A DNA stretch of 64,000 bases, from NCBI GenBank assembly GCA_964461255.1, contig CAYWTR010000015.1, positions 6,983 to 70,982 of the forward strand, given 5' to 3'. Below are positions 1 to 18,484 of this stretch, in pieces. The position numbers were made by a program, and so were the translations under genes. The stretch's first letter is position 1. The number at the start of each line of letters is the position of its first letter. This DNA comes from an uncultured Fibrobacteraceae bacterium (GTDB taxonomy: Bacteria > Krumholzibacteriota > Krumholzibacteriia > LZORAL124-64-63). The notes beneath the pieces are model-generated. The model saw only the letters and a program-made list of their open reading frames with translations, ran no database searches and was not told where the DNA came from.

Positions 1-76
1 TCATCCTCTCCATGCCCGCCCTCCGTGGTCTCACACCGCCCAGCGTGCCGACTTCCCAATGGCCGCCGCCCCGCCC

Positions 77-1519
77 TTAGATAACGGCATTGAAAACGTC
101 CTCCGCCAACCGTTCGCGCGGTGATTTGCCGCCAGGGATCACAAGCGCTTTCAGCAGAAGATCGTGCAAACCCATCACCCTGCAGGGAAGCTTGTAGAAC
201 TCAACCAGCTCTTTGAGTTGTTTCTTGCAGTTCGCGCAAGGCGCGATAACGATCTCGGCGCCAGTGCGCTGGATCTGCTCTGCCTTGACCTTGCCCCCGA
301 CCTGCATTCTGAAGTCATGGATTTCATCCACGGACACCAGGCCGCCGCCGCCGCCGCAGCAATAGTTGCGCTCGCCGCCTGGCTCCATATCAACGAAATC
401 GCGGACGAATGCGCGCAGGATCTCGCGCGGTTGCTCGACAATCCAGCCCGAGCGCGCAATGTTGCAGGGATCATGATACGTCACCCGCTGGGAGACAATC
501 GTGGGATCAAGTTGGATCTTGCCTCGCTGCAGGCAATCCAGCGTGTATTCCATGAAATTGATGACGGGATAGGCACGGCGCCCGCCGAATACCGGCACAA
601 ATTGGTGGGCGGCGCGCGAGGCATGACCGCACTCGCCGATTAGGACACCGCGTCCACGCAGACGTGCGACCTCGTCCAATAGTTGCTGAACGATACGCTC
701 AAGGTGCCAATCGCTATAGAATAGCCCATAGTTGATCCCATCATAGTTGCAGGTGCCGATGGTCCAACGTTCCCAGTCCCCCGCCGCATATAGCACGGCG
801 GCGTTGCCCATCAGGGTATCGGGCTCCATCAGGTAATCGCTCACGGCGCAGAAGAAGACATAATCGCGATCCTCGCGATCGACGGGGAAATCCAGCTCGA
901 CTCCAAGCTGCTCCGTCATTTCCTCCGCCAGGAAAGAAAGAGTGTTCAACATCGCCTTCTTGGGGATCTTAGACGTGTTGTGCGTCTCTCCCTCGAGCTG
1001 TTCTCGCACGCTGACCTGCAGGGCTTTGGGCACGATGCCGATGAGACTCAACACGTAACGGCCCAGCCGTGTCATGAGACCGTGGTCAACGCCCAGGGGG
1101 CATTCCAGTGTGCAGCGCCGGCAAGCCGTACAGCGATATAGCACGTCCGCCAGCTCATCCACCAGCTCCTCGGTCAGCTCGAAGCCGCGGCTGAACCGCG
1201 ATGCAAGCCAACCGCCAAGCGTGAAATAGCGTCGATAGATCTCGAGGAGTATGTTTGAGCGATAGCAGGGAATGTCGCGCGGTGACCCGGTTGTCATGTA
1301 GATCGGGCACGTCACGGCGCAGCGGTTACATTTGGCGCTGGTGTTACTATAGGAATCAAGCAAGGCACGGTAATCGGTGAATTCCAGCACGACGGCAAAC
1401 GCTTCCAGAAACCGCTCAACGCGCGGTCTTAGGGGTGCATTCTCCACGTAGTATGGAAACGAGCGACCGATATCAGGAGCGGCGTGCTGAACGGTCGATT
1501 CCATCGTCTTTGCTTCCAT
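77..1519 (-). CDS. Fe-S oxidoreductase, HdrD/GlpC-like (two 4Fe-4S ferredoxin motifs plus CCG-type Cys-rich domains)
   Basis: Two CxxCxxCxxxCP motifs (CNRCAVTCP, CTACRRCTLECP). C-terminal Cys-rich CCG-like segments (HDPCN, NYCCGGGGG, PCANC). Start re-assigned to MEAKTMESTV at 1519, since the longer ORF to 1612 only adds a non-conserved leader. Confidence 0.65.
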   Translation of the reverse strand: MEAKTMESTVQHAAPDIGRSFPYYVENAPLRPRVERFLEAFAVVLEFTDYRALLDSYSNTSAKCNRCAVTCPIYMTTGSPRDIPCYRSNILLEIYRRYFTLGGWLASRFSRGFELTEELVDELADVLYRCTACRRCTLECPLGVDHGLMTRLGRYVLSLIGIVPKALQVSVREQLEGETHNTSKIPKKAMLNTLSFLAEEMTEQLGVELDFPVDREDRDYVFFCAVSDYLMEPDTLMGNAAVLYAAGDWERWTIGTCNYDGINYGLFYSDWHLERIVQQLLDEVARLRGRGVLIGECGHASRAAHQFVPVFGGRRAYPVINFMEYTLDCLQRGKIQLDPTIVSQRVTYHDPCNIARSGWIVEQPREILRAFVRDFVDMEPGGERNYCCGGGGGLVSVDEIHDFRMQVGGKVKAEQIQRTGAEIVIAPCANCKKQLKELVEFYKLPCRVMGLHDLLLKALVIPGGKSPRERLAEDVFNAVI

Positions 1520-1793
1520 GATGTCGACACACCTCCGGGGCCGTTTGCAAGACAAGACGACAATGGCAAGGAGCGTACCCGCCGCCAAGGCAGGGCGAGC
1601 GCGCAGCCCCAACGGCCTCGAAACTGGGTGGCGTAACCGCGGGCTGAATGGCGCATGAGTCGCCAGGTTCGCCGTCTAATCACGGTCGCGGCAAGGAAGA
1701 GGCGCTGTGCCTGGAGAGCCCCGGCGCGGCGCAGGAGATCTTCCGTCAGCAGTCGGGCGCAACGGTTTGAGCGTTGCGTCGGTTGCATCGTCG

Positions 1794-1823
1794 TGTCGCA
1801 TGCGACATCGACTGCGACATCGC
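1794..1823. promoter_or_regulatory. Candidate enhancer/UAS: 14-bp perfect palindrome TGTCGCATGCGACA followed by direct repeats TGCGACATCG(A/C)
   Basis: Perfect palindrome read directly, about 200 bp upstream of the sigma-54 promoter at 2006. A TGT-N8-ACA architecture resembles bEBP upstream activator sites. Confidence 0.3.
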
Positions 1824-2003
1824 GCGACGTATCCGGCTTCTCCTACACCAGCCCTTTGGCGCAGCCGCGGCGGCCCGCCGGCGGCGTCAGGTGATGAAAC
1901 ACGCCCGCGATATCTCCGGCAACAGAGGAATAGTCGGCATCTGCCAGCGGTCTCGGATAAGCATCGAGCGGTGAAGGGGTGGCGGCAGCACGGAGAGGAT
2001 GCC

Positions 2004-2022
2004 CTTGGCACGCCCATTGCGA
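2004..2022 (+). promoter_or_regulatory. sigma-54 (RpoN) promoter, TGGCACG-N4-TTGC
   Basis: cccTTGGCACGcccaTTGCg is an exact match to the -24/-12 consensus with correct GG/GC spacing. It lies about 25 nt upstream of the 2047 start codon, which has a GAGGTG RBS, and a sigma-54 activator gene sits 1.7 kb downstream. Confidence 0.6.
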
Positions 2023-2046
2023 TGAAACGGGCAAAGCGAGGTGCAC

Positions 2047-3081
2047 ATGCGCTACGCGATCCCAGTTCTATCCCGCCGAGTATCGCCTCGCTGCACGATC
2101 GCCGAGACCGTCCTGGTTGTCGAGGCGCGCGCGGGCGAGGTTATCAACAGCCAGCGGCTGAATGCTCCGGGACGCACTTGGATGGAGCTGTTTTCGACCC
2201 TCGCAACCGAGCGCATCGATGTTCTCGTGTGCGGCGGCATATCGCGGGAGGCGAGACAGGCTCTCCGCGCGCGAAACATCACGGTGGTCGACAACGTGGC
2301 GGCCACAATCGACAGCGTGATAGGCGCGATTGCGACGGGAGAACTAAGGCCCGGCTACGGCTTTGATAGCGATGGGCGCGACGGCGGGGATCCGGACATC
2401 GTGCCTGCCGGCGTGTCCTTCCATCGCGATGCTGGCGCTCGTGATCGGGGCGCCGCTGCCGGATCCCGACCTCCGGAGTCGGGAGCGCCGGACTGCCTTG
2501 CCTGCGCCGACAGGGTGTGCCTGCTCGGAGATCCATGCCCATCGTTCGCACGCCGTGGTGGTGCCGGTCCCCATGGCAACACCCGCCGCATCCTGGAAGC
2601 GACCCACGATATCGCCTGCGAGGATGAGCGCGTCTTGTGCCGGCTGTCCGAGCTGATCTACTTCGGCCTGGAAATGGGATACCGCCGCATCGGCGTCGCT
2701 TTTTGCTGGGACCTTCTGGAGGCGACCCGGATTCTGGTTGGGGTCATGCGGCGCTTCTTCGATGTCGTGCCCATTGGCTGCAAGATCAACCGCCCCGCCG
2801 CCCCGGCCCCGGGCCGCAACTTTATGGGAACCGAATCGCCGCTGCCGTCGCGCTACATCCCCTGCAATCCTCGCGGGCAAGCGCTGGCGCTGGCGCGGGC
2901 TGGCAGCGAACTCAATGTCGCCGTCGGTCTGTGCATGGGAGCCGACTGTTTGTTCGCGCAGGCCAGTCGCGCGCCCGTAAGCACGCTGTTCGTCAAAGAT
3001 CGCTCCTTTGCAAAACAACCCCATCGGGGCATTGTACAGCGATCACTACTTAAAGGAAGCGCTGCGAGCGTCCGCGGCTGA
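2047..3081 (+). CDS. NifX/NifB-like Fe-Mo cluster-binding domain (DUF134) fused to a C-terminal Cys-rich domain (DUF1847-like)
   Basis: N-terminus (IAETVLVVEARAGEVIN...LVCGGISREARQALRARNITVV) matches the PF02579-type fold. The C-terminal half carries DCLACADRVCLLGDPC and further conserved Cys residues. The gene is driven by the sigma-54 promoter. ATG at 2047 is preferred over GTG at 2041. Confidence 0.55.
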   Translation: MRYAIPVLSRRVSPRCTIAETVLVVEARAGEVINSQRLNAPGRTWMELFSTLATERIDVLVCGGISREARQALRARNITVVDNVAATIDSVIGAIATGELRPGYGFDSDGRDGGDPDIVPAGVSFHRDAGARDRGAAAGSRPPESGAPDCLACADRVCLLGDPCPSFARRGGAGPHGNTRRILEATHDIACEDERVLCRLSELIYFGLEMGYRRIGVAFCWDLLEATRILVGVMRRFFDVVPIGCKINRPAAPAPGRNFMGTESPLPSRYIPCNPRGQALALARAGSELNVAVGLCMGADCLFAQASRAPVSTLFVKDRSFAKQPHRGIVQRSLLKGSAASVRG

Positions 3082-3150
3082 GCGCGCCTGGCGTCTGACC
3101 AACTGCTCAACGCTCGTGTCCGCGGCATCTTCGCCAAAGGAGGCATTGCC

Positions 3151-3682
3151 ATGACGGTCACTCGCATTAGCGCCGTGGGTTTTTGTGCACACTATTCACC
3201 CGCAGGCGATTTGGCCTTTGACTTCGCGTTGCGCCTTTCGCGCGATCATGGCTTTCAACTCAACGTGTTTCACTTTCTCGTTGATCCCTACGCGCGCACT
3301 GAGGCTCTGACCCGTTTCTACAGCGGCCGCGAATTGGCCGATCTGGCCTATGAGCGCGAACGAGAACTGCGCCTTTACTACGACGAACGCGCGGGAGACT
3401 ATCTTGAGATCGGCTTTCGGCTGTGCTACGACGATAGCTGGCGCGAGCTGCATCGCTGCCTGGCCGGTCCACGAGTTCCAGCTGCTGGTGCTCGCGAAAC
3501 CAGCTGCCGACAGTGTGTTTTGCCGCAAACCGATTGAGATCTTCGCCGATAGCTTCGTCTGCCCGGTGGTGCTGGTCGGGCCCGACGACGCCGGCCATTA
3601 CCGACTCAACAGCAGCGCCTCCTTGCTAGCCGATCAGTTGGATCTGCCGGCGGAACGGTGGCAGCGTATCGAAACCGCCTAG
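3151..3682 (+). pseudogene. Universal stress protein (UspA family) with an apparent +1 frameshift near 3465-3480
   Basis: Frame 1 (3151-3537) gives a Usp N-terminus (ISAVGFCAHYSPAGDLAFDFALRLSRDHGFQLNVFHF). Frame 2 (to 3682) gives the Usp C-terminus (HEFQLLVLAKPAADSVFCRKPIEIFADSFVCPVVLVGP). The junction lies at HRCLAGP / VHEFQ. This is either a genuine frameshift or an indel error. Confidence 0.45.
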
Positions 3683-3813
3683 CGCGCGGGAGGCAGCGAT
3701 TGGGCGCGACCATTTCAGAGCCCCTGAGGACAGATTGTCACGCTGCCGCTCGCGCTGGTTGCGCTATCCGCTCCCCAGCCTATTTTGGGGACAGGAAAGA
3801 GCGGATTGATGCC

Positions 3814-5118
3814 ATGCCCGAGAAGTTGAGTCAGATTATCTTCAACAGCATCAGCGATGGTGTGTTCACGGTCGACCGTGACTGCATCATCACCTCGTTC
3901 AACCACGCCGCGGAACGCATCACCGGCTTCAGCGCTGCCGAGGCTGTCGGCAAGCACTGCTTCGATGTGTTCCGCACCGACATCTGCCACAAGCAGTGTG
4001 CACTGAAGGACACGCTGCACACGGCCGCTCCCGTCGAGAACACGCGCGTCACGATTATAACCCGCGATGAACGCGAGGTGCCGATCCGTGTTACAACTAC
4101 GCTGCTGCGAGACGACAACGGCCAGGTTATCGGCGCGGTGGAATTCTTCCGAGACATTTCCGAACTCGAGCACCTGCGGGAAAGCCTCGATCGCAAGCGC
4201 GGTCTGGAAGACATTGTCAGTGTCAACCGGCAGATGCAGCAGCTTATCGCACTGCTGCCTGACATCGCCGAATCCGAATGCAACGTGCTGCTGGAAGGAC
4301 CCAGTGGCTGCGGCAAGGAGCTGGTGGCGCAGACCATCCACAATTTGAGCCCCAGACGCTATGGCCCCTACATAAGGATCAACTGCGCCGCACTGCCGGC
4401 ACCCCTGCTCGAATCCGAGCTTTTCGGCTACGAAAAGGGGGCCTTTACGGACGCCAAGCGCAACAAACCGGGCCAGTTCAGCCTTGCCAATGGCGGCACG
4501 CTGCTGCTCGACGAGATCGCCGAGATGGCTGTCTCTCTGCAGGTCAAGCTTCTGCGCGTTCTGAACAACGGCGAGTATCAGCCCTTGGGCTCGGCGAAAT
4601 CCATGCGCACCGATGCGCGCATCGTCGCGGCCACCAACGCCGATCTCCAGCAGGAGGTCAGCGCCGGCCGGTTCCGCGAGGATCTCTACTATCGCATCAA
4701 CGTCGTCAACCTCAAGATCCCGCCTCTTGACCAACGCCCCGAGGACATTCCGCTGCTGGTCAACCACTTTCTCGGCCTCTTCCGCGCGCCCCGCGCCAAG
4801 AACATCACTCAGGTATCAAGTGAGGCGATGGCGGCCCTGCGGCGGTACCGCTATCCAGGTAATATTCGGGAACTGGAAAACGCCATCGAGCATGCCTTCG
4901 TTATGTGCCATGGCGAGCGCATCGAGCTGGAGCATTTGCCGGCGCATCTTGTTTCCCTGGCCGAGACGGTGAACGGCATCACGGCTCATCCGCAATGCGA
5001 GCGCGATGTCATCCTGGAAGCGCTGCAAAGGCATAAAGGCAATCGCGCCGCCACAGCCGCGGAGCTGGGCATCCACCGCAGCACTCTTTGGCGCAAGATC
5101 AGGTCGCTGAAGGTCTGA
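3814..5118 (+). CDS. sigma-54-dependent transcriptional activator (PAS sensor, AAA+ sigma-54 interaction domain, Fis-type HTH)
   Basis: Walker A GPSGCGKE, sigma-54 activator box ESELFGYEKGAFTDA (GAFTDA variant of GAFTGA), GGTLLLDEI, C-terminal HTH AAELGIHRSTLWRKI. The N-terminal PAS carries a C-x8-C-x3-C cysteine motif. An RBS (aggaaagag) precedes the ATG at 3814. Confidence 0.85.
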   Translation: MPEKLSQIIFNSISDGVFTVDRDCIITSFNHAAERITGFSAAEAVGKHCFDVFRTDICHKQCALKDTLHTAAPVENTRVTIITRDEREVPIRVTTTLLRDDNGQVIGAVEFFRDISELEHLRESLDRKRGLEDIVSVNRQMQQLIALLPDIAESECNVLLEGPSGCGKELVAQTIHNLSPRRYGPYIRINCAALPAPLLESELFGYEKGAFTDAKRNKPGQFSLANGGTLLLDEIAEMAVSLQVKLLRVLNNGEYQPLGSAKSMRTDARIVAATNADLQQEVSAGRFREDLYYRINVVNLKIPPLDQRPEDIPLLVNHFLGLFRAPRAKNITQVSSEAMAALRRYRYPGNIRELENAIEHAFVMCHGERIELEHLPAHLVSLAETVNGITAHPQCERDVILEALQRHKGNRAATAAELGIHRSTLWRKIRSLKV

Positions 5119-5149
5119 GTGTTTCACGAGCCGTTGGCTGCCCCACGGA

Positions 5150-6523
5150 CTACTCCGCCAAGAGCGCGGCCACTTCCATGCCGCCACTCGCATCGCAGCC
5201 CAGATCGAGCGTCGGCGCGTCCGCCCCGCGCAGTGCGCGGCCGTCGGCGTGGTGCGTCACGCGCACCAGCGGGCGCTCGATGTCTGCGCCGGCGGCGATC
5301 ACCAGGGCCTGCTCGCCGGTAGACATGCGGACGCTGCTGCCCGGGGGATACAGGCCCAGGGCGCGCACGAAGGCCGCCAGCAGATCGGGCGCGAAGGCGC
5401 CCTCGTCGGCGAGCATGATCTCGTACGCGCGGCGCGGAGCCAGCGCGCGCTTGTAGGGCCGGACGGCGGTGAGCGCCTCGTACACATCGCAGATGTGGAG
5501 CAGCGCCGTCAAGCGGCCGGGCGCGGCCCAGGTCGGACGGGCGGGATACCCGCCGCCGTCGTGCCGCCAGTGATGGCCCAGCGCGGCGGCGACGGCGGGC
5601 ATCCCGGCGGCGCGGTTCTGGAGCAAGAGGCGCGCGCCCAGCGCGGCGTGCTCCTCGATCGCGCGCCGCTGCTCGGCATTCAGCCCGTCCGGTTTGTACA
5701 GGATCTCCTCCGGGATGCACGCCTTGCCGACGTCGTGCAGCAGGCCGGCCTCGCCCAGATGGTGAAGCTGCGGCGGCGGCAGCCCCCAGCGATGGCCGAC
5801 CAGCACGGCGATCGTCGCCACGCGCACGGAGTGGCCGATCAGGTAGCTGTCGTGGTCGGGATAACGGACGAGCCGCATCAGGTCGAGACAGCCGCCGTCC
5901 TCGACCCGAGACAGCTTCTCGCTCAGCGACCTCACCGCCTCAACGTCCAGCTGGTCGCCGGCGGCGGCCTGTCCGTGGACGGCTTCGACGGTGTGGAACA
6001 ACGACTGGTACAGCTGGATCACGGCCTCCAGATGGCGGGCGCTGTCTTCGTCCTCCCGCGACGCCGCGCCGGAGGCGGCGCTCGGGCAGATGGAGTCGGC
6101 CTCAGCGCAAACCACCGCCAGCTCGATGAGGCGTACGCCGCGGGCCCGCAGCAGGCGGCGCGCTTCCTCTAGGTCGCTGGCCGGCTCGGCGAGCTCGGCC
6201 GACAGTGAGTACAGCTCGGACAGTTCCCGCGGCTCGGCGCCGTGGTGGAAGAGGAAACCGCCGCAACGCAGCTGTTCGGCGAGGGCCACGACCTTGCCGC
6301 CGGCGATCGTCGAACCGATCAGATAGTTCCCATCGTGAACCAGCTTACCGTCGACCACCCCCAGCAGGAAAGACTCCTTGCCCGCCTCGCGCAGCACGCC
6401 GTCCAGCTGGGCGGCGAAGCGTTCGCACAGCGCCGCGACCTTGGGATGATCGCGGAAGTACATCTTGCGCTGGCCGAGGCCGCTGCTCAGCAGGATCACC
6501 AGCTGGTCGTAGCGCGCGTTCAT
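5150..6523 (-). CDS. HD-GYP domain protein (putative c-di-GMP phosphodiesterase) with N-terminal sensory region
   Basis: HD motif (LLHDVGK) and HHWRHDGGGYP signature. The start overlaps the upstream ORF stop (ATGA). Confidence 0.8.
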   Translation of the reverse strand: MNARYDQLVILLSSGLGQRKMYFRDHPKVAALCERFAAQLDGVLREAGKESFLLGVVDGKLVHDGNYLIGSTIAGGKVVALAEQLRCGGFLFHHGAEPRELSELYSLSAELAEPASDLEEARRLLRARGVRLIELAVVCAEADSICPSAASGAASREDEDSARHLEAVIQLYQSLFHTVEAVHGQAAAGDQLDVEAVRSLSEKLSRVEDGGCLDLMRLVRYPDHDSYLIGHSVRVATIAVLVGHRWGLPPPQLHHLGEAGLLHDVGKACIPEEILYKPDGLNAEQRRAIEEHAALGARLLLQNRAAGMPAVAAALGHHWRHDGGGYPARPTWAAPGRLTALLHICDVYEALTAVRPYKRALAPRRAYEIMLADEGAFAPDLLAAFVRALGLYPPGSSVRMSTGEQALVIAAGADIERPLVRVTHHADGRALRGADAPTLDLGCDASGGMEVAALLAE

Positions 6524-8547
6524 GACGCGTCACCTCGCTGTCCGGCGCCTCCCTCGAGGGCGGGCGACGGGGCGGGGTGTTGCAGCCGAAGCAGCGCCTC
6601 GCCCGCCGCCAGCCGGCAGCGCGCCGGCCAGGCCGGCCAGACCAGCAGCCGCCGCCCGCTCTGGATTGCGCGCAGCACGTGGACGGCGGCGCCCCCGCCC
6701 AGCAGGCCCAGCGCCGCAATCGCGTCGGCCGCAGCCGCCTCGCCCCGGCGCGACGGCGGCAGCATGCTCAACGCCTCCGACAGCAACCGACCCCACAGCG
6801 CGCGCGTTTCGGCGGAGGGAGCCGCGGCGCCGGCATCTCCCAACACGCGGGCCAGCAACGGACGGTGGCGCGGCTGGTAATCGCCCAACAAGGCCAGCGT
6901 GCGTCCGGGCAGCCAGACCGGCGGCCGCTGGCGCAGGCCTTCCCAGAGCGCGGCGCCGATCGCCAACCCCTGCGCGGACCACAGCAGGAGCGCGCAGAGA
7001 GGCGCCAGGCCGGGAGGCGGCGCGTGCAGCCAGCGCAGGGAGAGCTTGCCTTCCCGCAGCGACGCCAGTCCCTCCAGCCGCGGCAGGGCGCGGCGCATGG
7101 CGTCTTCGTCTAGGGACGCGGCCGCCTGGTGCAGCGCCTCGCGCACCGCCGGCTCTTCGTGTTCGAGGCCCGCGAGGATCTCGTTGACGATGTGCGGCCA
7201 CAGCGCGGCCAGCGCCTCGCCCGCCAGGCCGCGGGCCGCGTCGCGCAACAGGCTGCCGGGCGCAGACGGGCTTCCGGCGCGCAGGGCCCCGCACACGGCG
7301 TCCAGCAGGGGGTCCAGCAGAGCGAGCGGAACGCGCGCGGCCAGATCGCCCAACGCGGTCGCCAGCAGCGCGTGCTCGGCCGGTTGCAGCGGGGGGGCGA
7401 CGTTTTCCCGCAACCTGTTCAAGACCTCGGCCGACAGCGCGGGCGGCGGCGCGGCGGTCGCGATCTGCAGCAGAACGGCGAGGGTTTCGCGGCGGTCGGC
7501 CGGCGCGGGCGCGCCGCTGTCCCCTTCCGCCGCCTCGTCCAACCGCCGGTTCAGCTCATCCACGGTCCACTCGCAGGCTTCTGCTTCGCGCGTGTGCTTG
7601 ATCGGCGGCGCGGCATGCCGGCTTCCCCGCGCCTGCCTGGCCGCCTGGCGGAAGGCGTCGAGCATCAACGCGACCATGTCGCCGTCGCCAGGCTGAACCA
7701 GAGCCAGCTGCGCCTGCGCCAAGGCCCCCGCCAGATCGGCCGCGGTCGCCGTCGCCGGCACGGTCTGCAGGAGCGCGTGGCGGAGAGCCTGGGCGGCGAG
7801 CGCGAAGACGTCGTCGAACGAGCGGACGCCGGCGGCTTGTCCCCCTTGCTGCTGGGCGGACCCCTGCTCCATCTGCCCGGCCAGCTTCGCCGTCAGCGTC
7901 TCAAGCAGCTGCTCGCAGGCCGCCCGTGCGCCAGCGTCGAGATCGTCCCGCTCGAGCGCGCCCAACGCCGCGTCGGCCGCCGCCCTGATCCTTGCGCCGA
8001 GGAAGGCGACATCGCCCCCGGCCAGCGCCAGCTTGAATTCCCGCCGTGTGGTCCTGATCGCCGGGCCCAGGTCGTCGAGCTGGATACGGTGAAATCCCTG
8101 GACGGTGTCCGCCTCGAGCTTGTGGCGTTGCATCGTGGTCACGAACCGATGCAGATCCTCGGGTGTGACGCCGGCGTCGAACTCCAGGCGGGCGACGCCG
8201 AGGCGATCGAGCAACTCGTGCAGGCGCACCGCGCCGCGTTGCGATGAATCGAGCCGTTGTCCGCCGATGACCAGGAAGCCGCGGCCGACGTCGATCCCGA
8301 GCGTCGTTCCACCGTCCAGGGCCTGCTGCAGCTCGCGCGTGAACGCGGCGGCGACCTCGGCGACCAGCGTATGCCCGGCGGGATAGTAGGTGGCGATGGT
8401 GAACAGGCGGTCGAGTGCGCCGAGGAGTCCGGCATGCTGCCGTGGTGGGCTGCGGGGTGGAACCGTGGCAACGTTCATGACGGCGCCCTGGCCTTCGCGG
8501 AGCACGGATCGGGCTCGCGTCCGGCGATCTTGATCGATCGTTTGCAA
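6520..8547 (-). CDS. Hypothetical Ala/Leu-rich protein, translationally coupled to the HD-GYP gene
   Basis: Long ORF on the same strand whose stop overlaps the HD-GYP start. No recognisable motif. Start is uncertain: TTG at 8547 or ATG (MNVATV) at about 8478. Confidence 0.45.
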   Translation of the reverse strand: MQTIDQDRRTRARSVLREGQGAVMNVATVPPRSPPRQHAGLLGALDRLFTIATYYPAGHTLVAEVAAAFTRELQQALDGGTTLGIDVGRGFLVIGGQRLDSSQRGAVRLHELLDRLGVARLEFDAGVTPEDLHRFVTTMQRHKLEADTVQGFHRIQLDDLGPAIRTTRREFKLALAGGDVAFLGARIRAAADAALGALERDDLDAGARAACEQLLETLTAKLAGQMEQGSAQQQGGQAAGVRSFDDVFALAAQALRHALLQTVPATATAADLAGALAQAQLALVQPGDGDMVALMLDAFRQAARQARGSRHAAPPIKHTREAEACEWTVDELNRRLDEAAEGDSGAPAPADRRETLAVLLQIATAAPPPALSAEVLNRLRENVAPPLQPAEHALLATALGDLAARVPLALLDPLLDAVCGALRAGSPSAPGSLLRDAARGLAGEALAALWPHIVNEILAGLEHEEPAVREALHQAAASLDEDAMRRALPRLEGLASLREGKLSLRWLHAPPPGLAPLCALLLWSAQGLAIGAALWEGLRQRPPVWLPGRTLALLGDYQPRHRPLLARVLGDAGAAAPSAETRALWGRLLSEALSMLPPSRRGEAAAADAIAALGLLGGGAAVHVLRAIQSGRRLLVWPAWPARCRLAAGEALLRLQHPAPSPALEGGAGQRGDAS

Positions 8548-8703
8548 TTCTGGTTGTCGGCGGTATTCCGGGCGGCCTTAGCCCGAATTGCGTCCGTCGG
8601 CCACAGGGCAATCGGGCAGAGGACGACTGCATCCTCGGACGCCATCTGCTATGATGGCTCGTGATCACGATTCTCGATACTCGACCTCAACCGGGGGGAT
8701 GCC

Positions 8704-9189
8704 ATGGCCGGCAGGAACATCGACCTGCGCGTGAAGGAATTGATGGCCCGCGACGTGGTCTGCGTGCACCCGGAGGATCCGCTGCGCGAGGCGCTCGCGC
8801 TGATGTTCGAGAACCGGGTCTCGGCCGTGCCGGTGGTCGACAAACGTGAACGGTGCAAGGGGATCCTGTCCACAACCGACCTGGTGGGCCTGCTGTTCGG
8901 CCGCCAGGCCGAGCCGGCCGGCGGCGAAGAACCGGCGGACCTGGCGGATTTCCCCGCCGATCTGGCCGAGGCCGGACGGCCCGGCTCCCGCCTGGGCGAT
9001 CGGCTGGTCGGCGAGGTCATGACGCGCAGCGTCATCACCGTCTCCCTGGAAGACACTGTCCTGGCCGCCGCCCGCGAGATGGCCCGCAACCGCGTCCATC
9101 GGCTGGTCGTCATCGATCCCCAGCAGCGGGTTATCGGCATCCTCTCGACCATGGACCTGATAGAAGCCTTCGCGGCGGAGACGCCCTAG
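8704..9189 (+). CDS. CBS domain pair protein
   Basis: Two CBS-like segments (VMARDVVCVHPEDPLREALALMFENRVSAVPVVD and VMTRSVITVSLEDTVLAAAREMARNRVHRLVVID). GGGGAT RBS-like sequence before the ATG. Confidence 0.8.
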   Translation: MAGRNIDLRVKELMARDVVCVHPEDPLREALALMFENRVSAVPVVDKRERCKGILSTTDLVGLLFGRQAEPAGGEEPADLADFPADLAEAGRPGSRLGDRLVGEVMTRSVITVSLEDTVLAAAREMARNRVHRLVVIDPQQRVIGILSTMDLIEAFAAETP

Positions 9190-9232
9190 CCCCGCCGCCG
9201 AACGGTCCGCCCGCAGCCGCAAGGAGGGCCTG

Positions 9233-11338
9233 GTGTCAAGCCGCCTGTTCCACCCGCGAAGGCCGCGCGCGCGCTACTTGGCTGCCGCGGCGGCGTTGCT
9301 CGCGCTGGCCGGCGCGCTGCCGGCGGCCGCGCAGCTCGAGCGCGACCGCCCCCAGCCCCCGGGAGCGCCCGAGCCTCCCACCGTCCACGCCCGCCTGGCT
9401 CGCGCCGGCGCCGCCGCCGATCATCCCGGCGCCGGCCACCTCATCGTGCTCGACCACGCCGTCAACCACGTCGAGCCCAGCGGCGTCACCTACATCGACC
9501 ATTACCAGCTGCTGAAGATCCTGACCCCGGCGGGGGCGGTGCAGCGCTCGGCGCTGGTGTGGCCCTACGATCCGCGCAGCAGCCACGTGGAGATCGCCGA
9601 GGTCAACCTGGTGCGAGACGGACGGCGGCTGCCGGTCGATCTGGCGGCGCTCAAGGATCTGCCGGCGCCGCAGGCCGCCATCTACTGGGCGGATCGCATC
9701 AAGACGCTGCAGCTGCCGCGGTTGCGGGCCGGCGACGGCGTCGAGATCGTGGCGATGCGCAAGGGCTACAACTACGCCCTGCTGCGCGACGGCGGGGACG
9801 AGGCGCCCCGCCTGGCGGGCGCCCGCGAGCGCATCCGCGGCGCCGGCGACGAGGACGACCGTTACATCCCCCCCATGGCCGGCGAGTACTTCGACATCGT
9901 GGTGATGCAGGCCGACGTGCCCATCGTCGAGAAGCGGTACGAGCTGGTGCTGCCGGCGGACAAGCGTCTGATCAGCCAGGTCTACAACGGCCCGCTCTAC
10001 GCGCGCACGGACTACGACGCGCAGGCCACGCGCTACAGCTGGTGGATCGAGAACGTCCCCGCGAGGCCGCGCGAGCCGCGCCAGCCGGGCGAGCAGGACA
10101 TCTGCCCCAAGGTGGTGATGACCACGGCTCCCAGCTGGGAGGCGAAGTCGCGCTGGTTCCTGGACGTCAACCGCAACCAGTTCGAGATCACCGGCGACAT
10201 CCGCGCGCACGTCGCGAGCGTGCTGGCGGAGGCCGGGCTGACCCAGCGCAGCGATCCCCTGCAGGTCGCCAAGGCGCTGAACCACTGGGTGGCGCAGAAC
10301 ATCCGTTACAGCGGCCAGACGATGGGCGAGGGCGAAGGCTTCACGCTGCATCCGTCGCACATGTTGTTCGAGTACCGCAGCGGCGTCTGCAAGGACATCG
10401 CCTCGATGAGCGTGACCCTGCTGCGCGCGGCGGGACTGGCCGCCTATCCCGCGATGACCATGGCCGGCAGCCGCATCGAGGACATCCCGGCCGACCAGTT
10501 CAACCATTGCGTGGTCGCCTGGGAGCAGGCGCCCGGCGAGTTCGTGATGCTCGACCCCACCTGGGTGCCTTTCACCAACGACATCTGGTCGAAGCTGGAG
10601 ACCGAGCAGCAGTACGTGATCGGTCACCCGCAGGGGATGGCGCTGCAGGAGATCCGCTACAGCCCGCCGGAGGAATCGCCGCTGGCGGTGCGGCACACGG
10701 CCGAGCTGCGGCCGGACGGAACGCTGTCCGGCAGGCTGCGCCTGGAGGGGCGGGGAGCCCTGGACGGACGTTTGCGCAGCCTGGTGGCGGGGCAGTCGCG
10801 GCGCGGTCTGACGCCGGCGCTGGCGGCCCTGCTGGCGCAGGCCAGCCCCCGCGCGGTCGTGCAGACGGTCGCGCACCGCGCGCCGGACGATTTCACGGGC
10901 GACATGTGGCTGGAGATCGCCTACGAGGCGCCCGGGCACGCCCTGGAGGTCGGCGACGGACTGGAGTTCAAGCCGATGGCGGCCGCGCTGCTGAAGGACC
11001 ATCCCTCGCTCTTCCGCGCCGGCGCGAGCGACTGGCCGGCCGAGCGCCGCACGGACCTGCTGCTGTACCACACCCAACGCCTGGAGCTTGTCGAGGAGAT
11101 CCGCCTGCCCGCCGGCTACCGGCTGGCCAGCGCGCCGCTGCCGGCCGGCGTCGACGAGACCTACGCCGCCTTCAGCGCCGAAGCGGAGCTGCGTGGTCGG
11201 ACGCTGCGCCTGCAGGCGCGCACCGATATCCGGCGCCGCCAGATCCCGCCGGACGGTTACGCCGGCTTCCGGAAGACGGTCGCCGCGCTCGACGATTTCG
11301 CCGCGACCGTCATCCGCGTGAGCAAGGGAGGTTCATGA
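9233..11338 (+). CDS. Secreted DUF3857-like plus transglutaminase-like cysteine protease domain protein
   Basis: Signal peptide, then transglutaminase core with Cys/His/Asp context (YRSGVCKDIASMSVTLLRAAGLAAYPAMT ... FNHCVVAWE ... VMLDPTW). Confidence 0.65.
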   Translation: MSSRLFHPRRPRARYLAAAAALLALAGALPAAAQLERDRPQPPGAPEPPTVHARLARAGAAADHPGAGHLIVLDHAVNHVEPSGVTYIDHYQLLKILTPAGAVQRSALVWPYDPRSSHVEIAEVNLVRDGRRLPVDLAALKDLPAPQAAIYWADRIKTLQLPRLRAGDGVEIVAMRKGYNYALLRDGGDEAPRLAGARERIRGAGDEDDRYIPPMAGEYFDIVVMQADVPIVEKRYELVLPADKRLISQVYNGPLYARTDYDAQATRYSWWIENVPARPREPRQPGEQDICPKVVMTTAPSWEAKSRWFLDVNRNQFEITGDIRAHVASVLAEAGLTQRSDPLQVAKALNHWVAQNIRYSGQTMGEGEGFTLHPSHMLFEYRSGVCKDIASMSVTLLRAAGLAAYPAMTMAGSRIEDIPADQFNHCVVAWEQAPGEFVMLDPTWVPFTNDIWSKLETEQQYVIGHPQGMALQEIRYSPPEESPLAVRHTAELRPDGTLSGRLRLEGRGALDGRLRSLVAGQSRRGLTPALAALLAQASPRAVVQTVAHRAPDDFTGDMWLEIAYEAPGHALEVGDGLEFKPMAAALLKDHPSLFRAGASDWPAERRTDLLLYHTQRLELVEEIRLPAGYRLASAPLPAGVDETYAAFSAEAELRGRTLRLQARTDIRRRQIPPDGYAGFRKTVAALDDFAATVIRVSKGGS

Positions 11339-13263: not shown

Positions 13264-13602
13264 CTAGTGGTCGCAGACGTTCTCGCCCTGGCGCAGCGTG
13301 CCCGCCAGGTAATCGGCCACAAGCCGCTCGGGCGCTTCGGCCGGGGCGCCCACCATGACCTCGATGCCCTGCGCCGCGAAGAGCTCGCGCGCTCGCTGCC
13401 CCATCCCGCCGGCGATGATCACGCTCGCCCCCTGCTGCGCCAGCCAGGGCGGCAACAGACCAGGCTGATGCGGCGGGGCGGGAATGTCCTCGCGCGCGAG
13501 CACGCGCTGCGCGGCGGGATCGACATCGAGCAGGGCGAAGCTGGCGCAGTGGCCGAAATGCAAGGCCAGCTTGCCGTCGGCGAGCGGGATGGCGATGCGC
13601 AT
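13264..13602 (-). CDS. NifX/NifB-like Fe-Mo cluster-binding family protein (DUF134)
   Basis: MRIAIPLADGKLALHFGHCASFALLD ... VIIAGGMGQRARELFAAQGIEVMVG. RBS caaggagaacggacagATG. Confidence 0.75.
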   Translation of the reverse strand: MRIAIPLADGKLALHFGHCASFALLDVDPAAQRVLAREDIPAPPHQPGLLPPWLAQQGASVIIAGGMGQRARELFAAQGIEVMVGAPAEAPERLVADYLAGTLRQGENVCDH

Positions 13603-13659
13603 CTGTCCGTTCTCCTTGATTGATGTGATCCTGCGGCCGCCGCGGCGGCCGGACGCGGG

Positions 13660-14559
13660 TCACGCCGCCGCCGCGCCGTCCACCAGGGACAACACGCGAC
13701 GCCAGACCCGGCGAATGTCCTCCGCGGAGGGGGTCTCGATCTCGACGACGGCGCGCGCCGCCAGTTGCGCGCGGGTCACACCCGCGTCGTAACGGATTCG
13801 CCCGACCGGCACCGCGCCCGCCGCCAGCGCCCGCGCCTCGATGCGCTCACTCAAGGCGGGCGAAAGATCCCACTTGTTGACGCAGACCGCCGCGGGCAGC
13901 CCGAAATGGCGCGCCAGCGACAGCACGCGCGCCAGGTCGTGATCGCCGGCAACCGTCGGCTCGGTCACGACCACCACCAGCGAGGCGCCCGTGACCGAGG
14001 CGATGACCGGGCAGCCGATTCCCGGCGGCCCGTCCACGAGCACGAGCCCGCGCTGCTGCGCCTCCGCCAACCGCCGCGCCTCCCGCCGCACAGTCGACAC
14101 CAGTTTGCCCGAGTTCTCGGCGGCGATCCCAAGGCGCGCGTGCACCATGGGACCGCTGCGCGTGTCGGAGACCATCCATTCCCCGCAAAGGCGCTCGGGG
14201 AAATCGATGGCCTGCGCCGGGCAGAGCCGCACGCAGAGACCACAGCCCTCGCAGGCGATGGGATCGACGGCGAAGATGGGCGCGCCCTGCTCGCCGGCCG
14301 CGACGCGCATGGCGTCGAATCGGCAGTGCGCCAGGCAGTCGCCACAGCCGGTGCAATCAGCCGGTCGGATGATCGCCTCGCGGCCGCTGTGGAAAGGCCG
14401 GCGCGCGCGCAGGTGCGGCTCCAGCACCAGATGCAGGTCGGCCGCGTCGACGTCGCAGTCGGCGACGACCGCATCCCCGCTGAGAATGGCGAACGAAGCG
14501 GTCAGGCTGGTCTTGCCCGTGCCGCCCTTGCCGCTGATGACCACGATCTCGCGCATCAC
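13660..14559 (-). CDS. MinD/ParA-superfamily P-loop ATPase with inserted 2x[4Fe-4S] ferredoxin domain (COG1149-type)
   Basis: Walker A GKGGTGKTS. Two Cys clusters, CTGCGDCLAHC and CEGCGLCVRLCP, inserted into the ATPase fold. Confidence 0.8.
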   Translation of the reverse strand: MMREIVVISGKGGTGKTSLTASFAILSGDAVVADCDVDAADLHLVLEPHLRARRPFHSGREAIIRPADCTGCGDCLAHCRFDAMRVAAGEQGAPIFAVDPIACEGCGLCVRLCPAQAIDFPERLCGEWMVSDTRSGPMVHARLGIAAENSGKLVSTVRREARRLAEAQQRGLVLVDGPPGIGCPVIASVTGASLVVVVTEPTVAGDHDLARVLSLARHFGLPAAVCVNKWDLSPALSERIEARALAAGAVPVGRIRYDAGVTRAQLAARAVVEIETPSAEDIRRVWRRVLSLVDGAAAA

Positions 14560-15395
14560 GCCTCCCGCGGCGTCATGACAAGCTCGCCCAGGCGCGCAAA
14601 CAGCGGCCGGTAGGCCGGCAGCGCGTCGATCAGCAACGCTCCCTCCGCGTACGCCTCGGCGATGCGCCGGTCATCGGGAATCTCGAGCAGGATCGGTATC
14701 CCCTGCTGCGCGCACCATTCCTGGACACGCCGGTCGCCGGCGCCGGCCCGGTTGATCACCACGCCGTGCGGCAGTTCCAGCTCGCGCGCCAGCGCCGCCG
14801 CCAGGGTCAGGTCGTGCAAGCCGAAGGGCGTCGGCTCGGTCACCAGCAGCAAGTAGTCCGCGCCGCGCACCGCCGCGATCACCGGGCACGATGTCCCCGG
14901 CGGCGCGTCGATCAACGCCGGCAGATCATCTCGCCCTCGCTGTCTCACAGCTCTGATCAGCGGCGGAGCCGCGGGCACCCCGACGTCGAGCCTTCCCTGG
15001 ATCAGCGTGATCGGTCCCGCCGTCAGGGTCTCCACGACACCGATGCGCCGGCCCGTTTCGCTGATGGCGCGTTGAGGACAGACCAGGGCGCAGCCGCCGC
15101 AGCCGTGGCAGAGCTCGGCGAAGACAAGCGGCTCCGTCCCGAACGAGACGATGGCGTGGTACTGGCAGAAGCGGCTGCACTCGCCGCAGCCGTCGCAGCG
15201 AGCCGCATCGACCACCGGGACGGGCAGCGTCACCTCGACGCTGTCGCGGCATGTTCCCGCCAGGAACAGGTGCGCGTTGGGCGCCTCGACATCGCAATCC
15301 AGCAGCTGCACCGGTTCTCCCAGAGCCTTGGCCAGGTTCACCGCGACCGTGGTCTTGCCGGTGCCGCCCTTGCCCGAAGCCACGGCGACGATCAT
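14556..15395 (-). CDS. MinD/ParA-superfamily P-loop ATPase with inserted 2x[4Fe-4S] ferredoxin domain (second copy)
   Basis: Walker A GKGGTGKTT. Cys clusters CDGCGECSRFC and CHGCGGCALVCP. Start at MIVAVASGKGG (15395) overlaps the upstream stop (ATGA). The stop overlaps the downstream paralog start. Confidence 0.8.
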   Translation of the reverse strand: MIVAVASGKGGTGKTTVAVNLAKALGEPVQLLDCDVEAPNAHLFLAGTCRDSVEVTLPVPVVDAARCDGCGECSRFCQYHAIVSFGTEPLVFAELCHGCGGCALVCPQRAISETGRRIGVVETLTAGPITLIQGRLDVGVPAAPPLIRAVRQRGRDDLPALIDAPPGTSCPVIAAVRGADYLLLVTEPTPFGLHDLTLAAALARELELPHGVVINRAGAGDRRVQEWCAQQGIPILLEIPDDRRIAEAYAEGALLIDALPAYRPLFARLGELVMTPREA

Positions 15396-15754: not shown

Positions 15755-15851
15755 TCTGCGCTCCTTCCGTAGCGCCGGCGCCGGGCGGCGGTCTCGCCGC
15801 ATCGCCCCCGACGCGGACCGCCCGCCGCGGCGCCGGCCTGCCCAGACGTAC

Positions 15852-16217: not shown

Positions 16218-16262
16218 GGTCATGCCTCCTTTCACATCGCGCCTCTCCACCGCCGCGCAGCA

Positions 16263-16913: not shown

Positions 16914-16960
16914 GCGGGCGCTCCTCTCTGCGGGCTGGGGGAAAGATCCAGCATGGATCG

Positions 16961-16999
16961 CGCCGCCGGCACCGCGGTTCGTTCATTGACACAACGTGT
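16961..16999. promoter_or_regulatory. AT-rich island with consensus TTGACA and TATAAT hexamers and an ACAC-N3-GTGT inverted repeat. It lies upstream of the minus-strand NifX-like/ATPase cluster, just downstream of the sigma-54 activator gene
   Basis: ttgacacaacgtgtttatttataattgattatgatgaca sits in an otherwise about 70% GC context. The hexamer spacing is only 13 nt, so this may be a DNA-bending or binding site rather than a promoter. Confidence 0.3.

Positions 17000-17098: not shown

Positions 17099-18484
<1,386 letters not shown>

What the first reader, a model, noticed from the sequence alone, without database searches (positions are those of the whole stretch)
1794..2022. Textbook sigma-54 promoter with an upstream 14-bp perfect palindrome and direct repeats
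TTGGCACGcccaTTGCg at 2006-2021 matches the RpoN consensus exactly. About 200 bp upstream lie TGTCGCATGCGACA (perfect palindrome) and TGCGACATCGA/TGCGACATCGC direct repeats. This is a plausible enhancer for one of the two PAS activators encoded in the window.
Basis: seen in the sequence. Interest (0 to 1): 0.5.

Follow-up and report, generated by a model that had tools for sequence, protein, structure and literature searches.

The report
Bidirectional sigma-54 enhancer-promoter region
The sigma-54 promoter and its upstream repeats are real, and the repeats sit midway between two back-to-back sigma-54 promoters that a neighbouring redox-sensor-type activator probably uses to switch on a membrane electron-transfer complex and its own operon; this is a well-supported but ordinary kind of bacterial control region.

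Summary
TGGCACG-N4-TTGC (2006-2020, +) is the only perfect match in 64 kb. It lies 26 nt before the ATG (2047) of a NifX-DUF1847 gene. The 14-bp palindrome alone is not unusual, but it belongs to an array of TGYRACA heptamers (core 1794-1819, degenerate copies 1758-1829).

About 80 related metagenomic loci share the gene order: HmcF/DsrK-like gene (-), then NifX-DUF1847, a USP-like gene and a PAS sigma-54 activator (+). Nearly all of them carry three things:
- a -24/-12 promoter before NifX-DUF1847;
- one compact heptamer cluster about 180-200 bp from each promoter, 29-fold enriched.

The cognate activator is almost certainly the one at 3814-5118. It is always syntenic, and it carries the Cys triad and the GAFTDA variant described for OrpR, the [4Fe-4S] redox-sensing activator of Desulfovibrio vulgaris. 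Its DNA motif and target genes differ from OrpR's.

Verdict: supported and extended. This is a new member of a known kind. Binding, transcription starts and rpoN in this genome remain untested.

The parts
2006..2020 (+). Sigma-54 (-24/-12) promoter P(+) TGGCACGcccaTTGC. GG is at 2007-2008 and GC at 2019-2020. The predicted start is about 2031-2033.
   Evidence: It is the only perfect match in the window. Score >=5 sites sit before the orthologous ATG in 60/70 relatives, with consensus YGGCAYG-N4-TTGC.
1566..1580 (-). Second, divergent sigma-54-type promoter P(-) GGGTACGctccTTGC, read on the minus strand. GG is at 1579-1578 and GC at 1567-1566. The predicted start is about 1553-1556, and there are 46 nt from the -12 C to the ATG at 1519.
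   Evidence: It has 2 mismatches to the consensus. The site is conserved as TGGTAYG-N4-TTGC in 48/54 relatives, 46 of them 15-60 nt before the HmcF-like start. L025, L038 and L063 also read GGGTACG.
1794..1819 (.). Enhancer (UAS) core with three exact heptamers: TGTCGCA (1794-1800, reverse orientation), TGCGACA (1801-1807) and TGCGACA (1813-1819). The first two form the 14-bp palindrome. The last two are 12 bp apart.
   Evidence: The same heptamer family, TGYRACA/TGTYGCA, clusters midway between the promoters in relatives: 7.46 per kb there against 0.26 per kb elsewhere.
1758..1829 (.). Extended enhancer with degenerate half-sites flanking the core: CGCAACG 1758-1764, CGTTGCG 1772-1778, GGTTGCA 1781-1787 and CGCGACG 1823-1829. 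Left-hand sites mostly point left and right-hand sites point right, giving rough dyad symmetry about 1800/1801.
   Evidence: Read from the sequence and from the inverted-repeat list (I11, I9). The 9-10 bp spacings match the commonest spacings in relatives. Which sites are used is inferred.
2047..3081 (+). First gene of the P(+) operon, a NifX-like (Nitro_FeMo-Co) + DUF1847 fusion. A GAGG Shine-Dalgarno lies at 2037-2040. The C-terminus is frameshifted relative to all homologues.
   Evidence: Pfam, the alignment with 31 homologues, and the alternative frame that restores NNPIGALYSDHYLKEA.
3151..3682 (+). Second gene of the P(+) operon, weakly USP-like and about 175 aa in relatives. In the window it is split into two frames (3151-3537 and 3350-3682) by an indel near 3463-3469.
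   Evidence: In relatives, tblastn shows the two halves contiguous and in one frame. There is a weak Usp hit for the L009 orthologue.
3814..5118 (+). Cognate activator (EBP1) with PAS, a sigma-54 AAA+ domain and a Fis-type HTH. It has the Cys triad C49/C58/C62 with D51, and a GAFTDA loop.
   Evidence: Pfam and the sequence. It is syntenic in the ~60 relatives whose fetched sequence reaches it, at 59-85% identity. GAFTDA is present in 57/58 orthologues, and the triad and recognition helix are conserved.
77..1519 (-). First gene of the P(-) operon, an HmcF/DsrK/TmcB-like Fe-S protein with a CCG domain. The operon continues left of the window with an HmcE/TmcC-like membrane anchor, an HmcB-like Fe-S protein and an HmcC-like NrfD protein fused to a c3-type cytochrome.
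   Evidence: Pfam, NCBIfam, and the gene calls on identical contigs L001-L005.

Best explanation
The 527-bp intergenic region 1520-2046 is a bidirectional sigma-54 control region.

Layout (shown):
- Two back-to-back -24/-12 promoters face outward. P(+) at 2006-2020 drives nifX-DUF1847, the usp-like gene and probably the activator gene. P(-) at 1580-1566 drives an Hmc/Tmc/Dsr-like transmembrane electron-transfer operon.
- A single compact array of TGYRACA heptamers (core 1794-1819) lies midway, about 203 and 225 bp from the two -24 GG dinucleotides.
- Both promoters, the array, the synteny and the activator's sequence motifs are conserved in related loci.

Mechanism (inferred):
- The activator encoded at 3814-5118 binds this array through its Fis-type HTH and assembles into the usual AAA+ ring.
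- By DNA looping it contacts sigma-54 holoenzyme parked at either promoter and uses ATP to open it.
- Its PAS domain has the C-x-[D/E]-x6-C-x3-C motif that binds a redox-sensitive [4Fe-4S] cluster in OrpR of Desulfovibrio vulgaris. The likely signal is therefore redox potential, with activation under reducing conditions.

Nothing was measured here: not binding, looping, the transcription start sites, Fe-S binding, the direction of the redox response, co-transcription of the activator gene, or the presence of rpoN.
For: (1) P(+) is the only perfect TGGCACG-N4-TTGC in 64 kb. It lies 26 nt before an ATG confirmed by homologue N-termini.

(2) 81 related loci (L007, L008-L087) share the gene order.

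(3) Promoters are conserved. For P(+), 60/70 non-redundant relatives score >=5 in the 150 bp before the ATG, 57 of them at 15-60 nt. For P(-), the figures are 48/54 and 46. Chance is 0.046 per 150 bp. The apparent failures carry TGGCAT-N5-TTGT variants. The two logos are distinct: YGGCAYG on the plus side and TGGTAYG on the minus side.

(4) The enhancer is conserved. TGCAACA occurs in 51/55 and TGCGACA in 32/55 intergenic regions. Density is 7.46 per kb between the promoters and 0.26 per kb elsewhere. The median cluster span is 39 bp. The cluster centre lies a median 181 and 200 bp from the two GG.

(5) The window holds no other heptamer cluster.

(6) The activator has a complete Sigma54_activat, AAA_lid and HTH_8 architecture. 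Its recognition helix HRSTLWRK is conserved among orthologues, which fits a conserved half-site.

(7) The Cys triad and GAFTDA match what is published for OrpR/DVU2106. C52, C61 and C65 bind a [4Fe-4S] cluster, and OrpR co-regulates two divergent sigma-54 operons (PMC8359166). GAFTDA is listed for DVU2106 in PMC4641369, Table 1.

(8) The regulatory DNA is base-for-base identical in five independently assembled contigs, and a sixth, shorter one matches from about 1856 onward.
Against: - No experimental data exist for this locus.
- rpoN is not in the window (no RpoN box), and the organism could not be identified.
- P(-) in the window has G instead of T at -26 and T instead of C at -23.
- In the window the two central half-sites are 7 bp apart centre to centre. 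The family norm is 3 bp (TGTTGCAACA), or 9-10 bp between neighbouring sites. The geometry of binding is therefore unclear.
- The enhancer lies further from the promoters (~200 bp) than the OrpR sites do (-88 and -131, PMC3897727).
- No IHF consensus site lies in the spacers of the window, and the family-wide test is inconclusive.
- The first two genes of the P(+) operon are frameshifted in this organism, so part of the output may be non-functional.
- A median gap of ~136 bp precedes the activator gene, so it may have its own unrecognised promoter.
Confidence: 0.8

Rival explanations
1. The heptamer array is bound by a different protein. One candidate is the window's second PAS activator (17099-18484, minus strand), which would cross-regulate. 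Another is a repressor of the divergent genes.
For: The second activator is 50% identical to the first. It has the same Cys triad and a similar recognition helix, HKSTLFRK against HRSTLWRK. No binding data exist.
Against: Only the first activator travels with the array: it is syntenic in the ~60 relatives whose sequence reaches it. The second activator sits next to its own likely targets, an orp-like gene cluster. No heptamer cluster lies near that cluster. No other DNA-binding protein is encoded in the conserved module.
Confidence: 0.07
2. The control region is a relic in this organism. The module arrived by horizontal transfer and is decaying, so the textbook promoter now drives pseudogenes.
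For: The two operons form a ~60% GC island in a 70-76% GC background. NifX-DUF1847 has lost its nearly invariant C-terminal motif through a frameshift, and the USP-like gene is split. Both lesions are present in all six independent assemblies.
Against: Both promoters, the heptamer array, the activator gene and the HmcF-like gene are intact. The Hmc-like genes to the left are called full-length. If the activator is co-transcribed from P(+), that promoter stays under selection. This reading changes the output of P(+), not the nature of the elements.
Confidence: 0.1
3. Only P(+) is a working promoter. The GGGTACG-N4-TTGC site on the minus strand is a non-functional look-alike, and the HmcF-like operon is transcribed from another kind of promoter.
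For: The site has two mismatches to the consensus in the window, at -26 and -23.
Against: The site is conserved in 48/54 relatives at a fixed distance from the start codon. It has its own consensus, with T at -23 in 80% of cases. No sigma-70-like promoter was found in 1400-5300. The enhancer is placed symmetrically between the two sites.
Confidence: 0.03

Closest known systems
OrpR (DVU2106) and the orp1/orp2 operons of Desulfovibrio vulgaris Hildenborough (PMC8359166, PMC3897727, PMC4641369)
   Same: Both are one-component PAS + sigma-54 AAA+ + Fis-HTH activators. Both have three PAS cysteines spaced C-x8-C-x3-C with an acidic residue two positions after the first Cys. Both have the GAFTDA variant of GAFTGA. 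Both control two divergently transcribed sigma-54 operons next to the activator's own gene, and a NifX-type (Nitro_FeMo-Co) domain protein is among the targets.
   Different: The DNA site differs: TGYRACA heptamers here, against the 17-bp GGGCGYRTTTTGCGCCC for OrpR, which has no convincing copy in the window. Here one central array serves both promoters at ~200 bp. OrpR has two separate sites, at -88 and -131, on either side of orpR. The targets are an Hmc-like membrane complex and NifX-DUF1847 rather than the orp genes. The activator gene lies at the end of one target operon, whereas orpR has its own sigma-70 promoter. The window's second activator, which sits next to orp-like genes, may be the closer functional counterpart.
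ZraR with the divergent zraP / zraSR promoters of E. coli, and FhlA with hyc / hyp (from my own knowledge, not checked here)
   Same: Two back-to-back sigma-54 promoters are served by activator sites in the shared intergenic region. One of the operons encodes the activator, which gives positive autoregulation.
   Different: Those are a two-component response regulator (ZraR) and a formate-binding activator (FhlA). Their DNA motifs, signals and targets differ.
NtrC enhancers (TGCACCA-N3-TGGTGCA) and the NifA UAS (TGT-N10-ACA) (from my own knowledge)
   Same: Both are dyad-symmetric sites with TGT/ACA-type ends for Fis-type HTH dimers, with several sites arrayed about one helical turn apart upstream of a -24/-12 promoter. 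The arrangement TGCAACA-N3-TGTTGCA, seen in 11 relatives, has the same 7-3-7 format as the NtrC site.
   Different: The half-site sequence differs. The window's own arrangement, 7+7 with no spacer plus a third copy 12 bp on, fits neither template. The activator has a PAS sensor rather than a receiver or GAF domain.
Hmc, Tmc and DsrMKJOP transmembrane redox complexes of sulfate reducers (NCBIfam models)
   Same: The P(-) operon encodes HmcF/DsrK/TmcB-like, HmcE/TmcC-like, HmcB-like and HmcC-like subunits plus a c3-type cytochrome domain.
   Different: All hits fall well below the equivalog cut-offs. The gene order and the NrfD-cytochrome fusion also differ. It is a distinct, uncharacterised relative.

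Membership tests
Sigma-54 (RpoN) dependent promoter | GG and GC dinucleotides exactly 10 nt apart within TGGCAC-N5-TTGC | tested here: met
   P(+) is perfect over TGGCACG-N4-TTGC. P(-) keeps GG-N10-GC with 2 mismatches elsewhere.
Sigma-54 (RpoN) dependent promoter | Placed shortly upstream of a gene start and conserved at that place in orthologous loci | tested here: met
   The sites lie 26 nt (+) and 46 nt (-) from the starts. Score >=5 sites occur in 60/70 and 48/54 relatives, against a chance rate of 0.046.
Sigma-54 (RpoN) dependent promoter | An enhancer-binding AAA+ activator is available | tested here: met
   Two proteins with Sigma54_activat + HTH_8 are encoded in the window. One is in the same gene cluster.
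Sigma-54 (RpoN) dependent promoter | The genome encodes RpoN | not testable with these tools
   No RpoN box in the six-frame translation of the window. The rest of the genome is not available and the organism is unidentified.
Sigma-54 (RpoN) dependent promoter | Transcription start 11-13 nt downstream of the -12 GC, dependent on sigma-54 and the activator | not testable with these tools
   Needs 5' RACE, dRNA-seq or reporter assays.
Bacterial enhancer (UAS) for an EBP | Repeated or dyad-symmetric sites roughly 80-250 bp upstream of the -24/-12 element | tested here: met
   Three exact heptamers plus four degenerate ones lie 203 bp and 225 bp from the two GG.
Bacterial enhancer (UAS) for an EBP | The motif co-occurs with the activator gene across genomes | tested here: met
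   29-fold enrichment between the promoters in 48 loci that carry the orthologous activator.
Bacterial enhancer (UAS) for an EBP | Direct binding by the activator | not testable with these tools
   Needs EMSA, footprinting or ChIP.
OrpR-type Fe-S redox-sensing EBP | PAS domain with three conserved cysteines (C52, C61, C65 in OrpR, i.e. C-x8-C-x3-C) and an acidic residue at +2 | tested here: met
   C49, C58 and C62 with D51. The triad is conserved in the orthologues. The definition comes from PMC8359166.
OrpR-type Fe-S redox-sensing EBP | GAFTDA variant of the sigma-54 contact loop | tested here: met
   GAFTDA at residue 209, and in 57/58 orthologues. DVU2106 is listed as GAFTDA in PMC4641369.
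OrpR-type Fe-S redox-sensing EBP | Binds the 17-bp site GGGCGYRTTTTGCGCCC | tested here: not met
   The only hits have 3 mismatches, at chance frequency, and none lies in the intergenic region.
OrpR-type Fe-S redox-sensing EBP | Regulates the orp genes | tested here: not met
   The adjacent targets are an Hmc-like operon and NifX-DUF1847. The orp-like genes of the window lie next to the other activator.
OrpR-type Fe-S redox-sensing EBP | Binds a [4Fe-4S] cluster and responds to redox potential | not testable with these tools
   Needs anaerobic purification and spectroscopy.
OrpR-type Fe-S redox-sensing EBP | Sequence orthology to DVU2106 | not tested
   The DVU2106 sequence could not be obtained.
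OrpR-type Fe-S redox-sensing EBP | IHF site between the enhancer and the promoter | tested here: inconclusive
   No WATCARNNNNTTR match in the window's spacers. Across 48 loci there are 3 matches against 0.9 expected, and 16 of 200 shuffles reach that.

The most novel reading that the evidence does not exclude
This is a self-contained, horizontally mobile redox regulon. An OrpR-like Fe-S PAS activator with a GAFTDA loop uses one central enhancer array to fire two outward-facing sigma-54 promoters ~200 bp away on either side. It thereby couples its own synthesis to that of an uncharacterised Hmc-like respiratory complex and a NifX-DUF1847 metal-cluster protein. The module is conserved, with the same layout, in several mostly uncultured phyla (Planctomycetota, Zixibacteria, Krumholzibacteriia, Gemmatimonadota and others). 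It would define a second, widespread branch of the OrpR family, with a new DNA motif and a new physiological role.
Probability: 0.4. Interest if true: 0.5.

Novelty: new member of a known kind. Interest (0 to 1): 0.35.

Why it matters
Until now the only characterised sigma-54 activator with an Fe-S PAS sensor, OrpR, has been known with a single tiny regulon in one sulfate reducer. This result links a sequence relative of OrpR to a different, clearly delimited target set. That set is an Hmc-like membrane electron-transfer complex and a NifX-DUF1847 protein for which no paper in the held library was found.

The module comes with a precise and testable cis-regulatory map: two promoters, one enhancer and a heptamer motif. 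It is conserved in about 80 environmental loci from several phyla.

For genome annotation, the result provides a ready motif pair. This pair is YGGCAYG-N4-TTGC with TGGTAYG-N4-TTGC, plus TGYRACA clusters. It can be used to recognise the regulon. The result also offers a functional hint, anaerobic or redox control, for DUF1847. It does not change what is known about how sigma-54 promoters work.

Tried and rejected
- Rfam scan of 1-6000 at a permissive threshold found only one sub-threshold hit, far from the region. The long intergenic region therefore holds no known RNA.
- The sigma-70 promoter scan of 1400-5300 found none. The terminator-like hits are all inside genes.
- The OrpR binding motif is absent.
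- The IHF consensus test was inconclusive.
- I first took GAFTDA to be a sign of decay of the activator. That is rejected, because 57 of 58 orthologues have it and it is published for OrpR.
- I considered sequencing error as the cause of the two frameshifts. That is rejected, because six independent assemblies are identical.
- I considered programmed frameshifting at the A-run 3012-3015. The run is too short, nothing supports it, and I did not pursue it.
- A second sigma-54 promoter or heptamers directly upstream of the activator gene were not found in the family.
- Literature searches for DUF1847 (0 papers) and for TGTTGCAACA (nothing relevant) gave no prior description.
- Fievet et al. 2011 (PMC3133258) is not held.
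- The organism could not be named from the cluster look-ups.
- The other perfect TGGCAC-N5-TTGC, at 63022-63036, lies inside a long minus-strand ORF and was treated as chance.

Full report
**The observation.**
Reading the window confirms every element.
The core TGGCACG-N4-TTGC is 2006-2020.
- The palindrome TGTCGCATGCGACA is 1794-1807.
- The direct repeats TGCGACATCGA and TGCGACATCGC are 1801-1811 and 1813-1823.

The promoter core is the only zero-mismatch hit in 64 kb on either strand. Looser versions of the pattern are no more common than in shuffles. A single match therefore says little without context. The same holds for the palindrome: the window has 19 perfect 14-bp palindromes against 12.4 +/- 4.3 in shuffled sequence.

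What stands out is the clustering. Three of the window's 11 TGYRACA heptamers lie within 26 bp.

**Genes around it.**
- On the plus strand, the promoter lies 26 nt before the ATG at 2047, with GAGG at 2037-2040. The gene fuses a NifX-like Nitro_FeMo-Co domain to DUF1847. Its N-terminus MRYAIP matches all homologues.
- Next comes a gene of about 175 aa that is weakly USP-like.
- Then, at 3814-5118, comes a PAS / sigma-54 AAA+ / Fis-HTH activator.
- On the minus strand, from 1519, lies an Fe-S protein with a CCG domain. Its best NCBIfam hits are DsrK, HmcF and TmcB.
- Contigs identical to the window show this gene is followed by an HmcE/TmcC-like membrane anchor, an HmcB-like Fe-S protein and an HmcC-like NrfD protein fused to a c3-type cytochrome. 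Together they form an Hmc/Tmc/Dsr-like transmembrane electron-transfer complex. All hits fall below the equivalog cut-offs.

**Comparative evidence.**
One genome locus (L007, a Planctomycetota MAG) and 80 metagenome loci (L008-L087) encode relatives of the NifX-DUF1847 protein. A tblastn of the window's five products shows the same order and orientation wherever the contig is long enough. Identities are 66-76% for full-length hits to the HmcF-like protein, 36-49% for NifX-DUF1847 and 59-85% for the activator.

I scored -24/-12 sites by requiring GG-N10-GC and counting matches at eight further consensus positions.
- P(+): 60 of 70 non-redundant relatives have a site scoring >=5 in the 150 bp before the NifX-DUF1847 start. 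57 of these lie 15-60 nt from it.
- P(-): on the other strand, 48 of 54 have such a site before the HmcF-like start. 46 of these lie 15-60 nt from it.
- The background rate of such a score is 0.046 per 150 bp.
- The loci that failed carry TGGCAT-N5-TTGT or TGGTAT-N5-TTGT, a -12 variant found in A+T-rich relatives.

The two promoters have distinct logos. The plus side is YGGCAYG-N4-TTGC, with C at -23 in 98% of loci. The minus side is TGGTAYG-N4-TTGC, with T at -23 in 80%. The window's minus-strand site, GGGTACGctccTTGC at 1566-1580, fits the second logo. It lies 46 nt before the ATG at 1519.

**The enhancer.**
Among 55 non-redundant intergenic regions, the commonest 7-mers are TGCAACA (51 regions) and TGCGACA (32). 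The commonest 8-mer is GTTGCAAC, in 45. Printing the sites shows one compact cluster of two to six heptamers near the middle of each region.
- Between the two -24 elements the density of TGYRACA is 7.46 per kb. Elsewhere in the loci it is 0.26 per kb.
- The median span of the cluster is 39 bp.
- Its centre lies a median 181 bp from the minus-side GG and 200 bp from the plus-side GG. In the window these distances are 225 and 203 bp.
- The usual arrangement in relatives is the 10-bp palindrome TGTTGCAACA, with further heptamers 9-10 bp away. TGCAACA-N3-TGTTGCA occurs 11 times.
- The window differs in detail. It has TGTCGCA directly abutting TGCGACA, a third TGCGACA 12 bp further on, and degenerate copies at 1758-1764, 1772-1778, 1781-1787 and 1823-1829.

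The conserved unit is therefore the heptamer, not the 14-bp palindrome. The exact geometry of binding cannot be deduced from sequence.

**Which activator.**
The window encodes two PAS activators. The one at 3814-5118 accompanies the promoters and the heptamer array in the ~60 relatives whose fetched sequence reaches it. Its recognition helix HRSTLWRK is conserved. The window holds no other heptamer cluster.

The second activator (17099-18484, minus strand) is 50% identical. It is followed by genes for Nitro_FeMo-Co proteins, DUF5320 and two MinD/ParA-like Fe-S ATPases. That set resembles the orp cluster of Desulfovibrio vulgaris.

**Link to OrpR.**
The first activator has GAFTDA instead of GAFTGA. 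I first read this as damage. However, 57 of 58 orthologues have GAFTDA. A full-text search led to the D. vulgaris regulome paper, which lists GAFTDA for DVU2106 and counts it among the variants that remain active (PMC4641369).

DVU2106 is OrpR. It is a PAS sigma-54 activator whose conserved C52, C61 and C65 hold a redox-sensitive [4Fe-4S] cluster. It is active under reducing conditions, and its regulon is two divergent sigma-54 operons, with help from IHF (PMC8359166, PMC3897727). The window's activator has C49, C58 and C62 with D51, the same spacing and the same acidic residue. The orthologues conserve this. The second activator has the triad too.

There are also clear differences:
- OrpR binds GGGCGYRTTTTGCGCCC, at -88 and -131. 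That motif is absent here.
- The targets are different genes.
- One central array serves both promoters at about 200 bp.
- No IHF consensus is detectable in the window.

I therefore say it works like OrpR. I do not claim it is the OrpR orthologue.

**Mechanism proposed.**
Shown by the sequence and the comparisons:
- two conserved outward-facing -24/-12 promoters;
- one conserved heptamer array midway between them;
- a syntenic activator with a complete sigma-54 interaction module and an OrpR-type PAS motif.

Inferred from established knowledge of sigma-54 systems and from OrpR:
- the activator binds the array, oligomerises, loops to sigma-54 holoenzyme at either promoter and opens it with ATP;
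- its activity is gated by the redox state of an Fe-S cluster, probably on when reduced;
- the activator gene is read through from P(+), giving positive feedback.

The last point is the weakest. A median gap of 136 bp precedes the activator gene in the family, without a sigma-54 site or heptamers. No sigma-70-like promoter was detected in the window.

**Complications in this organism.**
- The two operons form a ~60% G+C island inside 70-76% G+C DNA. The right edge is sharp, just after the activator gene, near window 5120.
- NifX-DUF1847 has an extra A in the run at 3012-3015. This replaces the nearly invariant C-terminal motif ANNPIGALYSD-YLKEA. The alternative frame restores the motif and runs to a TGA that overlaps the next ATG.
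- The USP-like gene is split near 3463-3469.
- Both lesions are identical in six independently assembled contigs from different runs, and so is the regulatory DNA in the five that span it, so they are not assembly errors.

The control region is intact. Part of what P(+) expresses may be non-functional in this lineage.

**Verdict.**
It is extended to a bidirectional, shared-enhancer design with a named cognate activator. In kind it is a standard sigma-54 regulatory region. Related designs are known for OrpR and, from my own knowledge, for ZraR and FhlA. The DNA motif, the target operons and the breadth of the family appear undescribed in the library searched. I rate it a new member of a known kind, of moderate interest.

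Noticed in passing
window 3005-3152: NifX-DUF1847 is frameshifted relative to all 31 aligned homologues. An extra A in the run 3012-3015 replaces the nearly invariant C-terminal motif (S)LANNPIGALYSD.YLKEA with FAKQPHRGIVQRSLLKG. The other frame restores the motif and ends at a TGA overlapping the next gene's ATG (3151). The sequence is identical in six independent assemblies.
   Followed up: partly
window 3151-3682 (break near 3463-3469): The ~175-aa, weakly USP-like second gene of the operon is a single ORF in relatives. Here it is split into two overlapping frames (3151-3537 and 3350-3682).
   Followed up: partly
window 1-5120 (continues ~3.5 kb to the left, L001 ~2700-11300): The two sigma-54 operons form a compositional island of ~58-66% G+C, with GC3 ~0.70-0.73. 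The flanking DNA is 70-76% G+C with GC3 0.85-0.95. The right boundary is sharp, directly after the activator gene. This suggests horizontal acquisition of the whole module.
   Followed up: partly
window 13264-18484, minus strand: A second OrpR-like PAS activator (17099-18484) has GAFTGA and the same Cys triad, and is 50% identical to the first. Downstream of it lies an orp-like cluster: Nitro_FeMo-Co proteins at 16263-16913, 15392-15802 and 13264-13602, DUF5320 at 15852-16250, and two MinD/ParA-type Fe-S ATPases at 14556-15542 and 13660-14559. I saw no convincing -24/-12 site or OrpR motif in the A+T-rich gap 16914-17098.
   Followed up: partly
L008-L087 and window 1566-1580: The promoter of the HmcF-like operon has its own family-wide signature, TGGTAYG-N4-TTGC, with T rather than C at -23 in 80% of loci. 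The partner promoter keeps C in 98%. This systematic difference between two promoters served by one enhancer is unexplained.
   Followed up: no
L014, L041, L042, L045, L054, L058, L069: A+T-rich relatives use a -12 element TTGT or TTGA instead of TTGC (for example TGGCATatatgTTGT) at both promoters, so the supposedly invariant GC is replaced.
   Followed up: no
L007-L087 versus window: Within the module, the HmcF-like protein (66-76% for full-length hits) and the activator (59-85%) are much better conserved than NifX-DUF1847 (36-49%). This holds across loci of very different G+C content and several phyla.
   Followed up: no
window 63022-63036 (+) and 62151-62165 (+): A second perfect TGGCAC-N5-TTGC (TGGCACCGGCGTTGC) and a one-mismatch site. 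The first lies inside a long minus-strand ORF (62357-64000, GC3 0.95) and is probably chance.
   Followed up: partly
window 19521-23129 (-) and 36159-38111 (+): Large secreted-type proteins end in FlgD_ig-like C-terminal domains, and one also has Sortilin/BNR repeats. Such C-terminal domains recall FCB-group or Gemmatimonadota-like lineages. The organism itself could not be identified.
   Followed up: no
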